IMG/VR virus record: IMGVR_UViG_2537562190_000017 | Direction: 5' to 3' (one strand) | Source: a virus | Lineage: Duplodnaviria > Heunggongvirae > Uroviricota > Caudoviricetes | Length of the DNA: 21,234 nucleotides | The notes under the pieces: generated by a model | Seen by the model: only the letters and a program-made list of their open reading frames with translations | The model's database searches: none | Told to the model about the DNA's origin: nothing | In this document: positions 16,804-17,177 of the stretch, piece by piece | Position numbering within the stretch: the first letter of the stretch is position 1 | How the letters are laid out: every line of letters starts with the position of its first letter | Position numbers and translations under genes: made by a program

Positions 16804-16992
16804 ATGGAAACGTTATTACCAAACGTTAATACGTCTGAAGGTTGTTTTGATATTGGTGTTCTGCTCAGTAACCGGGAGTTTACTGAAGATGCCATTAAGA
16901 TGAGAAAATATGAACCTTATCTTCTCAATGATAATTCCATACTTTCCAGAATTGCCCTTCTTGAACTTGGTATTATCGGAGAACAGCAGTGA
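16804..16992 (+). CDS. Small hypothetical protein (62 aa), first gene of an AT-rich two-gene cassette
   Basis: GAGGA SD 7 nt upstream of ATG; METLLPNVNTSEGCFDIGVLLSNREFTEDAIKMRKYEPYLLNDNSILSRIALLELGIIGEQQ. Confidence 0.45.
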   Translation: METLLPNVNTSEGCFDIGVLLSNREFTEDAIKMRKYEPYLLNDNSILSRIALLELGIIGEQQ

Positions 16993-17177
16993 CCTCAGCA
17001 TTTGCACTGGTGATGACCGTTTTTCTTATAACGGGTGAGCCGCAGAATGTGATTACCGGAATTTATGACAGTAAGTCATCCTGCATTCAGGTAAGGGACG
17101 AACAAAAAATCCCCGGTGAATGCCTCCCGTTAAAAAAAGTATCGCTGTACCTGAATAACGAAATACCGGCTGGATAA
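16989..17177 (+). CDS. Small protein (62 aa) with N-terminal hydrophobic helix, translationally coupled to the preceding ORF
   Basis: GTG start overlapping the upstream TGA (GTGA), GGAG 7 nt upstream; MTSAFALVMTVFLITGEPQNVITGIYDSKSSCIQVRDEQKIPGECLPLKKVSLYLNNEIPAG. Confidence 0.45.
   Translation: MTSAFALVMTVFLITGEPQNVITGIYDSKSSCIQVRDEQKIPGECLPLKKVSLYLNNEIPAG

What the first reader, a model, noticed from the sequence alone, without database searches (positions are those of the whole stretch)
16804..17177. AT-rich two-gene cassette of translationally coupled small proteins between pL and the large nuclease gene
Two 62-codon ORFs with good SDs overlap start and stop (GTGA). The second has an N-terminal hydrophobic helix and two cysteines. 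The segment is visibly more A+T-rich than its neighbours, suggesting acquisition as a moron. It sits in the early-left slot that holds superinfection-exclusion or host-killing genes (sieB, kil-type) in other lambdoid phages. A small soluble protein paired with a small membrane protein is also a common toxin-antitoxin or abortive-infection layout. Neither protein resembles a family I recognise.
Basis: partly seen in the sequence, partly recalled or inferred. Interest (0 to 1): 0.6.

Follow-up and report, generated by a model that had tools for sequence, protein, structure and literature searches.

The report
dicB–ydfD prophage division-inhibitor/lysis gene pair
The two small overlapping genes are real, but they are a common allele of the well-known dicB (cell-division inhibitor) and ydfD (small lysis protein) pair, found in the early-left operon of many E. 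coli lambdoid prophages, so the finding is ordinary.

Summary
Two 62-codon ORFs (16804-16992 and 16989-17177) overlap in GTGA and each has a Shine-Dalgarno sequence 7 nt upstream.

Both belong to known families. ORF1 is DicB: Pfam PF05358 at 129.5 bits, NCBIfam NF049927 at 111 bits against a cutoff of 100. ORF2 is a DUF1482/YdfD-family protein: PF07358 at 56 bits. This DNA is 100% identical to E. coli UTAK-6, where RefSeq annotates "dicB" and "DUF1482 family protein".

Identity to the studied K-12 Qin proteins is 61% for DicB and 48% for YdfD. The operon layout is the same as in Qin: repressor/operators, ydfA-like gene, DicF-like sRNA, conserved leader, dicB, ydfD, exonuclease.

The pair is conserved as a unit. 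All 87 ydfD-seeded loci have dicB directly upstream, and all 20 phage records with DicB also carry YdfD. dN/dS is mostly 0.1-0.5.

A+T richness is modest (40.6% G+C against 50%) and is not confined to the cassette. There is no promoter or terminator of its own, so it is not a strict moron.

The toxin-antitoxin idea fits only loosely. Verdict: already known, low interest.

The parts
16804..16992 (+). dicB: 62-aa cell-division inhibition protein DicB. This is the 'window-type' allele: the N-terminal 37 residues are near-invariant family-wide, and the C-terminal 25 residues have diverged from K-12.
   Evidence: Pfam PF05358 at 129.5 bits, full length 1-62/62. NCBIfam NF049927 at 111 bits, cutoff 100. 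PHROG 1251. RefSeq dicB WP_000449172.1 on 100%-identical DNA. 61% identity to K-12 DicB. dN/dS 0.06-0.51.
16989..17177 (+). ydfD-like gene: 62-aa DUF1482-family protein with a GTG start overlapping the dicB stop (GTGA). It is the homologue of the Qin lysis protein YdfD.
   Evidence: Pfam PF07358 at 56.1 bits, gathering score 25. PHROG 1092. RefSeq 'DUF1482 family protein' WP_000199481.1. 48% identity to K-12 YdfD with no gaps over 62 residues. G16, C32 and C45 are invariant in the family. dN/dS 0.18-0.45. The 4-nt overlap is conserved in 86 of 87 loci.
16567..16620 (+). Divergent DicF-like sRNA: a single-stranded 5' part, a terminator-type hairpin at 16581-16614, and a T-run. It lies about 184 nt upstream of dicB, as in the K-12 dicBF operon.
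   Evidence: Rfam DicF RF00039 at 29 bits, E 5e-4, below the gathering score of 48. Hairpin -22.5 kcal/mol, z -3.5. Terminator-like site at 16584-16610 plus T-run. Alignment to K-12, Tritos and O157 DicF.
16621..16803 (+). dicB leader. It contains long stretches that are invariant among five loci, including the dicB Shine-Dalgarno GAGGA at 16792-16796.
   Evidence: Alignment A2. Megablast homology to K-12-type loci spans 16579-16915. Weak STnc100-like match at 16617-16823, 30.8 bits against a gathering score of 47.
16262..16414 (+). ydfA-like DUF1391 gene, the first gene of the early-left operon.
   Evidence: Pfam PF07151 at 98.9 bits. RefSeq DUF1391 CDS on the matching UTAK-6 DNA.
16039..16075 (.). 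Two operator-like palindromes, TACCCATGGGTA and TACCCGTGGGTA. They are the inferred OL/pL control site of the operon.
   Evidence: The motif TACC-N4-GGTA occurs 6 times in the window against 0.08 expected. Four copies lie in the immunity region, at 15505 and 15544 (between the cro-like and repressor genes) and at 16039 and 16064. The promoter itself is inferred; it was not found by the consensus scan.
15576..15995 (+). Putative prophage repressor (139 aa from the ATG), on the same strand as and upstream of the operon. It is the analogue of DicA/CI.
   Evidence: ORF. Weak C-terminal similarity to DicA NF007257, 24 bits. Divergent cro-like/YdaS-like and YdaT-like genes lie on the other strand.
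17270..19813 (+). 847-aa exonuclease, the gene that follows ydfD in all related loci. It combines a RecE-like N-terminal part with an Rv2179c-like 3'-5' exonuclease domain.
   Evidence: Pfam PF16473 at 226.8 bits and PF06630 at 46.6 bits. NCBIfam NF007259, model positions 1-602 of 877, below cutoff. Context.

Best explanation
The segment is the dicB-ydfD gene pair of a lambdoid (Qin/PPompW-like) E. coli prophage. It is transcribed as part of the repressor-controlled early-left operon: operators/pL, ydfA-like gene, DicF-like sRNA, conserved leader, dicB, ydfD, exonuclease, xis, int.

Shown here: family membership, gene order, translational coupling, purifying selection, and conservation of the pair as a unit.

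Inferred by homology to the K-12 Qin proteins:
- When the repressor is lifted, DicB binds MinC. The DicB-MinC complex goes to the septal ring through ZipA and breaks up FtsZ rings, so division stops.
- The same MinC-dependent activity blocks ManYZ. That excludes phages which inject DNA through ManYZ.
- YdfD is made by coupled translation from the same message. It is a small lysis protein whose killing needs ongoing division, and it is reported to bind and inhibit IspG in the MEP isoprenoid pathway.
- Co-produced DicB therefore masks YdfD lysis indirectly.

The window carries a common second allele class. The DicB C-terminal third is replaced, and YdfD is 48% identical to K-12. Whether the targets are exactly the same is an inference.
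For: Family membership:
- DicB: PF05358 at 129.5 bits over the full length and NF049927 at 111 bits, above the cutoff of 100.
- YdfD-like: PF07358 at 56.1 bits, above the gathering score of 25.
- BLASTP to K-12 DicB gives 61% identity (E 3e-23); to K-12 YdfD 48% (E 7e-22), ungapped.
- The DNA is 100% identical to E. coli UTAK-6, annotated as dicB + DUF1482.

Gene order: the same order is seen in K-12 Qin (ydfA-ydfB-ydfC-[dicF]-dicB-ydfD-exonuclease), in phage Tritos and in six other E. coli loci.

Coupling and pairing:
- The 4-nt ATGA/GTGA overlap is present in all 8 hand-checked loci.
- Of 87 ydfD-seeded loci (7 genome contigs of the species-representative collection, 80 IMG/VR contigs), all have dicB immediately upstream. 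86 have the 4-nt overlap with ydfD in frame.
- All 20 phage records with DicB also have YdfD.
- At least 80% of the pair is present in 1020 of 5426 complete E. coli genomes.

Selection: dN/dS is 0.06-0.51 for dicB and 0.18-0.45 for ydfD in informative pairs.

Operon control: a DicF-like sRNA and a conserved leader lie upstream. Operator repeats flank the repressor gene.

Published mechanism for the K-12 proteins:
- DicB-MinC-ZipA and ManYZ-dependent phage resistance (PMC6832061).
- dicBp is PL-like and repressed by DicA (PMC10448788).
- YdfD lysis is suppressed by DicB or SulA and linked to IspG (PMC8835842).
Against: - No experiment exists for this allele class in the library searched.
- The C-terminal 25 residues of DicB differ from K-12, and net charge is -5 against +3.
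- YdfD is only 48% identical to K-12. RefSeq names it 'DUF1482 family protein', not 'lysis protein YdfD'.
- The DicF-like element scores below Rfam's gathering score, and its 5' part is diverged.
- The promoter is inferred from operator repeats; the consensus scan did not find it.
- The IspG mechanism rests on one study. From my memory of Masuda 2016, which I could not read, that study proposed membrane association and reported residual toxicity of the C-terminal domain. Lu 2022 finds intact YdfD is required.
- The AlphaFold2 DicB model was of low confidence, pLDDT 65.7.
Confidence: 0.88

Rival explanations
1. The pair is a bona fide toxin-antitoxin or abortive-infection module. YdfD is the toxin and DicB is its dedicated antitoxin, and the pair is kept together for that reason.
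For: The genes are translationally coupled and always adjacent in Escherichia loci. In K-12, DicB co-expression abolishes YdfD lysis (PMC8835842).
Against: SulA suppresses YdfD lysis equally, so protection works through division arrest and not through direct neutralisation. DicB is itself toxic (PMC10448788). There are no PADLOC or toxin-antitoxin family hits. L007 combines a window-type DicB with a Qin-like YdfD, so there is no allele-specific co-evolution. Six Klebsiella phages have a DUF1482 gene and no DicB match. In the one I inspected, two unrelated tiny ORFs precede it.
Confidence: 0.06
2. The cassette is a horizontally acquired moron: an autonomously expressed add-on inserted between pL and the nuclease gene, marked by its low G+C.
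For: G+C is 40.6% against a window mean of 50.0%, the 4.6th percentile. dicB GC3 is 30%.
Against: There is no promoter-like site directly upstream and no terminator after ydfD on the + strand. The pair is preceded by a near-invariant leader and a DicF-like sRNA that belong to the same operon. Low G+C continues into the right flank (41.4%) and is matched at 15340-15984, over the repressor gene (39.4%). The position is fixed in all related prophages and phages examined.
Confidence: 0.05
3. The diverged alleles have shifted function. This DicB (new C-terminal third, acidic) and this YdfD (48% identical) act on partners other than MinC/ZipA/ManYZ and IspG.
For: The C-terminal 25 residues of DicB are replaced, and net charge is -5 against +3. 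YdfD dN against K-12 is about 0.52. A mosaic joint lies inside dicB near codon 37.
Against: The N-terminal 37 residues of DicB are almost invariant family-wide, and hybrid intermediates such as P0164 exist. The hydrophobic pattern of the C-terminal segment is retained. The core motifs of YdfD (G16, C32, C45, EQK..G.C.P) are retained. Operon context is identical.
Confidence: 0.12
4. One or both ORFs are chance reading frames in non-coding A+T-rich DNA.
For: The ORFs are short, and an antisense 63-aa ORF (16816-17007, minus strand) also exists.
Against: Both have strong Pfam, NCBIfam or PHROG hits. dN/dS is well below 1. Reading frames are intact in 86 of 87 loci. The K-12 orthologues have experimentally demonstrated products.
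Confidence: 0.01

Closest known systems
DicB of the E. coli K-12 Qin cryptic prophage (dicBF operon)
   Same: It is 62 aa, with 61% identity and residues 1-37 nearly identical. It hits the same Pfam and NCBIfam family above cutoff. It holds the same position after DicF and a conserved leader, with the same 4-nt overlap with ydfD. It sits in the same repressor-controlled PL-like operon.
   Different: The C-terminal 25 residues are replaced (NDNSILSRIALLELGIIGEQQ against NKICIVSMLARLRLMPKGCAQ). Net charge is -5 against +3. It has one cysteine instead of three. It lies in a prophage that, within this window, still carries int, xis, replication-type genes and lysis-type genes, with a different immunity region (YdaS/YdaT-like). 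MinC and ManYZ dependence are untested for this allele.
YdfD lysis protein of Qin (DUF1482, PF07358)
   Same: It has the same length, a hydrophobic N-terminus, the invariant G16/C32/C45, and the EQKIPG.C.P motif. It lies immediately downstream of dicB and upstream of the exonuclease gene.
   Different: It is only 48% identical, uses a GTG start, and has a less hydrophobic N-terminal segment (19-residue Kyte-Doolittle mean 1.39 against 2.0). RefSeq gives it only the family name. Lysis and IspG binding are untested.
Lambda Kil (early-left host-killing / division inhibitor) and SieB-type exclusion genes
   Same: They occupy the same genomic slot, the pL operon. They have the same kind of effect: FtsZ-ring inhibition and exclusion of other phages. 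This rests on established knowledge of lambda and on PMC6832061.
   Different: DicB's only Pfam hit is the DicB family. It acts through MinC, not on FtsZ directly. It is a functional analogue only, not a family member.
Single-gene lysis proteins (phiX174 E, Qbeta A2, LysM)
   Same: Each is a small protein that causes lysis by blocking supply of an envelope precursor instead of degrading the wall. Lu 2022 draws this analogy for YdfD.
   Different: It sits in a dsDNA lambdoid prophage that also has a holin/lysozyme-type lysis region. The proposed target, IspG, is cytosolic. There is no sequence or fold similarity.

Membership tests
DicB (PF05358 / NF049927) | Full-length match to the family model above the curated cutoff | tested here: met
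   PF05358 at 129.5 bits (gathering score 27), positions 1-62 of 62. NF049927 at 111 bits (cutoff 100).
DicB (PF05358 / NF049927) | A protein of about 62 aa with the conserved N-terminal block LPNVNTSEGCF...FTEDAI..RK | tested here: met
   Alignment A4 of 19 family members. The invariant columns all lie at or before residue 48, and the window sequence carries all of them.
DicB (PF05358 / NF049927) | Location in a repressor-controlled early-left operon, downstream of DicF and upstream of ydfD | tested here: met
   The DicF element itself is below Rfam's gathering score (29 against 48 bits).
DicB (PF05358 / NF049927) | MinC- and ZipA-dependent inhibition of division; MinC-dependent block of ManYZ | not testable with these tools
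   Known only for the K-12 protein (PMC6832061). No study of this allele was found.
YdfD / DUF1482 (PF07358) | Match to the family model above the gathering score | tested here: met
   56.1 bits against 25, positions 1-57 of 57. PHROG 1092 at 113 bits.
YdfD / DUF1482 (PF07358) | A protein of about 60-65 aa with a hydrophobic N-terminus and two conserved cysteines | tested here: met
   C32 and C45 are invariant in A1 and A5. The conserved cysteines are also noted in PMC8835842.
YdfD / DUF1482 (PF07358) | Functional equivalence to the K-12 lysis protein YdfD (division-dependent lysis, IspG binding) | not testable with these tools
   Only 48% identity. There was no NCBIfam hit. RefSeq uses the family name only.
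Toxin-antitoxin / anti-phage defence system | Match to a known toxin, antitoxin or defence-system model | tested here: not met
   No PADLOC hits. The only Pfam hits are DicB and DUF1482.
Toxin-antitoxin / anti-phage defence system | Obligate pairing and co-variation of the two partners | tested here: inconclusive
   The genes are always adjacent in Escherichia loci. However, alleles are shuffled in L007, and DUF1482 occurs without DicB in Klebsiella phages.
Moron (autonomous add-on gene in a prophage) | Own promoter upstream and terminator downstream | tested here: not met
   The consensus scan finds neither around 16804-17177 on the + strand. This scan is crude.
Moron (autonomous add-on gene in a prophage) | Composition distinct from both flanks | tested here: inconclusive
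   The cassette is 40.6% G+C. The left flank is 47.8%, the right flank 41.4%, and 15340-15984 (over the repressor gene) 39.4%.
DicF sRNA (RF00039), for the upstream element | Covariance-model score at or above the gathering score | tested here: not met
   29 bits against 48. The position and the terminator hairpin are conserved, but the 5' part is diverged. I treat it as DicF-like and not as a confirmed member.

The most novel reading that the evidence does not exclude
This allele class is widespread: at least 80% of the pair is present in about 19% of complete E. coli genomes. It differs from the K-12 proteins in two ways. DicB has a replaced, acidic C-terminal third joined at a mosaic point near codon 37. 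YdfD is 48% identical. The most novel reading is that the class has a different partner or exclusion specificity from the K-12 proteins, for example blocking a different inner-membrane entry route or lysing through a target other than IspG. On that reading, prophages would carry interchangeable specificity modules of a division-inhibitor/exclusion protein.
Probability: 0.12. Interest if true: 0.4.

Novelty: already known. Interest (0 to 1): 0.1.

Why it matters
It matters little as a discovery. Both genes are annotated in RefSeq and belong to families whose K-12 members have been studied for decades (DicB) or since 2016 (YdfD).

The useful outcomes are a correct label for the segment and a clear statement of what remains untested. 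All functional work concerns the Qin alleles. A second allele class is present in roughly a fifth of complete E. coli genomes, including relatives in O157:H7 and O55:H7 strains and in ompW-integrated prophages recorded together with Stx2a-converting phages. I found no functional study of that class.

If the two classes differ in partner specificity, that would bear on prophage-mediated phage exclusion and on filamentation or lysis during prophage induction in pathogenic E. coli.

Tried and rejected
- Source of the window. I first assumed it was the UTAK-6 prophage throughout. BLAST showed only 16087-21234 is 99.8% identical, and the immunity region differs. I therefore re-derived the context from the window's own ORFs and from closer relatives.
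- Rfam at gathering thresholds finds no DicF. It appears only at the E-value threshold and below the family cutoff.
- NCBIfam returned no hit for the YdfD-like protein. PADLOC has nothing for either protein.
- PDB sequence searches were empty or insignificant.
- The AlphaFold2 model of DicB had low confidence (pLDDT 65.7, three helices), so I did not use it for a fold search.
- The AlphaFold2 model of YdfD was usable (pLDDT 79.5). Foldseek against the PDB gave no match with E < 1, so no fold assignment was made.
- The Masuda 2016 ydfD paper (PMC5975272) is not held. Its results are cited second-hand through PMC8835842.
- Literature searches for the non-K-12 alleles ('DicB' + 'EHEC' + 'filamentation'; 'DUF1482') found nothing specific.
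- The consensus promoter scan did not find a pL. The control site is inferred from operator repeats instead.
- My first coordinates for the K-12 DicF segment in the segment-identity script were offset by about 10 nt. I disregarded that DicF figure (50.7%) and used alignment A2.
- Codon adaptation could not be computed because there was no reference gene set. I used GC3 instead.

Full report
**Observation.** The window has two 62-codon ORFs on the + strand, at 16804-16992 (ATG start) and 16989-17177 (GTG start). The GTG start of the second overlaps the TGA stop of the first, giving GTGA. A GAGGA lies 7 nt before the ATG, and a GGAG lies 7 nt before the GTG. The second protein begins with a hydrophobic run (AFALVMTVFLI, residues 4-14) and has cysteines at positions 32 and 45.

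G+C of 16804-17177 is 40.6%, against a window mean of 50.0%. That is the 4.6th percentile of all 374-nt windows. dicB is 37.0% (GC3 30%) and ydfD is 44.4%. The next 374 nt to the right are 41.4%, and 15340-15984, which overlaps the repressor gene, is 39.4%. The descriptive observation is therefore confirmed. The A+T richness is modest and is not confined to the cassette.

**Identity.**
- ORF1 matches Pfam DicB (PF05358) over its full length at 129.5 bits. It passes the curated cutoff of NCBIfam NF049927, "cell division inhibition protein DicB", at 111 bits against 100.
- ORF2 matches Pfam DUF1482 (PF07358) at 56.1 bits against a gathering score of 25. It also matches PHROG 1092.
- The 1-kb stretch 16400-17400 is 100% identical to E. 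coli UTAK-6. There RefSeq annotates exactly these CDSs as dicB (WP_000449172.1) and "DUF1482 family protein" (WP_000199481.1).
- Against the K-12 Qin prophage, ORF1 is 61% identical to DicB. ORF2 is 48% identical, without gaps, to "lysis protein YdfD".

**Context.** The window is not the UTAK-6 prophage throughout. Only 16087-21234 is 99.8% identical, and the immunity region differs. The closest complete genomes over 14800-17300 are about 95% identical. Reading the window itself gives the following order.
- YdaT-like and cro/YdaS-like genes lie on the - strand.
- A 139-aa putative repressor lies on the + strand at 15576-15995. It has weak similarity to DicA.
- The palindromic motif TACC-N4-GGTA occurs at 15505 and 15544, between the divergent regulators, and at 16039 and 16064, just after the repressor gene. 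There are six copies in the window against 0.08 expected. I read the latter two as OL/pL. This is an inference, because the consensus promoter scan did not call a promoter there.
- Downstream come a ydfA-like DUF1391 gene (16262-16414) and a DicF-like element (16567-16620). The DicF-like element scores 29 bits in Rfam, below the gathering score of 48. Its hairpin folds at -22.5 kcal/mol with z = -3.5.
- A leader with long invariant stretches follows (16621-16803). Then come dicB, ydfD, an 847-aa exonuclease (17270-19813), and, by identity with UTAK-6, xis and int.
- This is the architecture of the K-12 dicBF operon and of phage Tritos. It agrees with the description of dicBp as a PL-like promoter repressed by DicA (PMC10448788).

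**Conservation as a pair.**
- In eight hand-checked loci, both genes are intact and overlap by ATGA or GTGA.
- I seeded a search with a YdfD alignment. It returned 7 genome contigs from the species-representative collection (E. albertii, E. ruysiae, E. coli, Shigella, and one probable mis-binned MAG) and 80 IMG/VR contigs.
- All 87 loci have dicB immediately upstream. In 86 of them the 4-nt overlap is present and ydfD is in frame. The Shigella flexneri copy has a frameshifted ydfD.
- That sample is biased towards close relatives of the window allele.
- In the phage collection, all 20 records with DicB also encode YdfD next to it.
- At least 80% of the pair's DNA is present in 1020 of 5426 complete E. 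coli genomes.
- Pairwise dN/dS is 0.06-0.51 for dicB and 0.18-0.45 for ydfD in informative comparisons. Both genes are therefore under purifying selection.
- The pairing is not obligatory at family level. Six Klebsiella phages have a DUF1482 gene and no DicB match. In the one I inspected, it sits in the same early-left slot and is preceded by two unrelated tiny ORFs.
- The DUF1482 family is small: 54 clusters at 50% identity among 1.84 billion representatives.

**Allele structure.** Two allele classes are evident.
- K-12-type genomes match the window only from the DicF hairpin to about codon 37 of dicB, at 16579-16915 and roughly 85% identity. Beyond that point the sequences diverge. This places a mosaic joint inside dicB.
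- DicB residues 1-37 are nearly invariant across 19 family members. The C-terminal third is variable, and hybrid forms exist.
- Locus L007 combines a window-type DicB with a Qin-like YdfD. The two genes therefore recombine independently.
- The window DicB is acidic (net charge -5), whereas K-12 DicB is basic (+3).

**Mechanism.** This part rests on homology, and none of it has been tested for this allele class.
- For K-12, DicB binds MinC. The complex is targeted to the septal ring through ZipA and depolymerises FtsZ.
- The same MinC-dependent activity inhibits ManYZ. It gives roughly 100-fold resistance to lambda and other ManYZ-dependent phages (PMC6832061).
- YdfD causes rapid lysis when expressed. 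That lysis is prevented by DicB or SulA, so it depends on division. YdfD is reported to bind IspG, with rescue by ispG overexpression or HMBPP (PMC8835842).
- Applied here: when the repressor is lifted, the early-left transcript yields the DicF-like RNA, then DicB, then YdfD by coupled translation. DicB arrests division and blocks one phage entry route. YdfD's lytic potential is masked while division is blocked.
- No work on the non-K-12 alleles was found.

**The 'membrane protein' claim.** The hydrophobic run in the window YdfD is about 12 residues. Its best 19-residue Kyte-Doolittle mean is 1.39, compared with 2.0 for K-12. An AlphaFold2 model built on a 23-sequence family alignment has pLDDT 79.5, with 81-92 over residues 1-50. 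It places residues 5-12 as a beta-strand in a beta-beta-alpha-beta fold. This is a model and not proof. It does fit the purification of YdfD and its binding to cytosolic IspG reported in PMC8835842. No solved structure resembles the model; all Foldseek E-values exceed 1.

**Rivals.**
- A dedicated toxin-antitoxin or abortive-infection module is unlikely. Suppression by DicB is indirect, DicB is itself toxic, neither protein matched a defence model, and alleles shuffle independently.
- A strict moron is unlikely. There is no promoter or terminator of its own. The pair sits behind a conserved operon leader, and the low G+C is shared with its neighbours.
- Chance ORFs are excluded.
- The only mildly novel possibility left open is that this allele class has shifted partner specificity. 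I put that at about 0.12.

**Verdict.** This is a correctly observed and already known feature: the dicB-ydfD pair of a lambdoid prophage early-left operon, here in a common non-K-12 allele. Its statement that the proteins belong to no recognisable family, and its moron and toxin-antitoxin framing, are not supported. Interest is low.

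Noticed in passing
window 16567-16620 (+): A DicF-like sRNA lies upstream of dicB. It scores 29 bits, below Rfam's gathering score of 48. Its terminator hairpin is conserved, but its 5' single-stranded part differs from K-12 DicF, so its mRNA targets may differ.
   Followed up: partly
window 16621-16803 (+) and 4276-4476 (-): The DicF-to-dicB leader has long invariant stretches across five loci. It gives a weak STnc100 match (16617-16823, 30.8 bits, gathering score 47). 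A full-scoring STnc100 copy (148 bits) lies in the late region, between a DNA methylase gene (4556-5614, - strand) and a nanS-p-like esterase gene (2106-4052, - strand). Any relationship between the two elements is unexplained.
   Followed up: partly
window about 16915 (dicB codon 37/38): There is a mosaic joint inside dicB. K-12-type genomes match only 16579-16915. Locus L007 (E. coli AVS0226) pairs a window-type DicB with a Qin-like YdfD, which shows recombination between and within the two genes.
   Followed up: partly
window 15505-15516, 15544-15555, 16039-16050, 16064-16075: Four copies of the palindromic motif TACC-N4-GGTA flank the putative repressor gene. The window has six copies in all against 0.08 expected. 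They look like OR and OL operators of this immunity type.
   Followed up: partly
window 17270-19813 (+): The 847-aa 'large nuclease' is a hybrid. It matches the RecE/ExoVIII model only over positions 1-602 of 877 (874 bits, below the cutoff of 1269). Its C-terminus is an Rv2179c-like DEDD 3'-5' exonuclease domain (227 bits).
   Followed up: partly
window 10401-10568 (-): There is a Sok antitoxin RNA match (100.8 bits). By homology with UTAK-6, a Hok/Gef family gene should lie in this region. This would be a hok/sok killer module inside the prophage.
   Followed up: no
window 14785-15475 (-): The immunity region carries a cro-like/YdaS-like regulator (15194-15475) and a YdaT-toxin-family gene (14785-15210). 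This is a Rac-like arrangement and differs from the otherwise near-identical UTAK-6 prophage. The mosaic boundary is near 16087.
   Followed up: partly
window 16989-17177 (YdfD-like protein): An AlphaFold2 model (pLDDT 79.5) predicts the hydrophobic N-terminus as a beta-strand in a compact beta-beta-alpha-beta fold and not as a membrane helix. No PDB fold match was found (all E > 1).
   Followed up: partly
L014 (JAGZPX010000007.1, 'Veillonella parvula' MAG): A contig assigned to a Veillonella MAG carries a K-12-type dicB-ydfD pair (95% and 86% identity to the K-12 proteins). This is most likely an Escherichia contig mis-binned into the MAG.
   Followed up: no
L098 1751-2189 (Klebsiella phage ST16-OXA48phi5.1): A DUF1482 gene sits in the same early-left slot without dicB. 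It is preceded by two overlapping tiny ORFs (46 and 37 aa) of unknown family, which might be analogues of DicB.
   Followed up: partly
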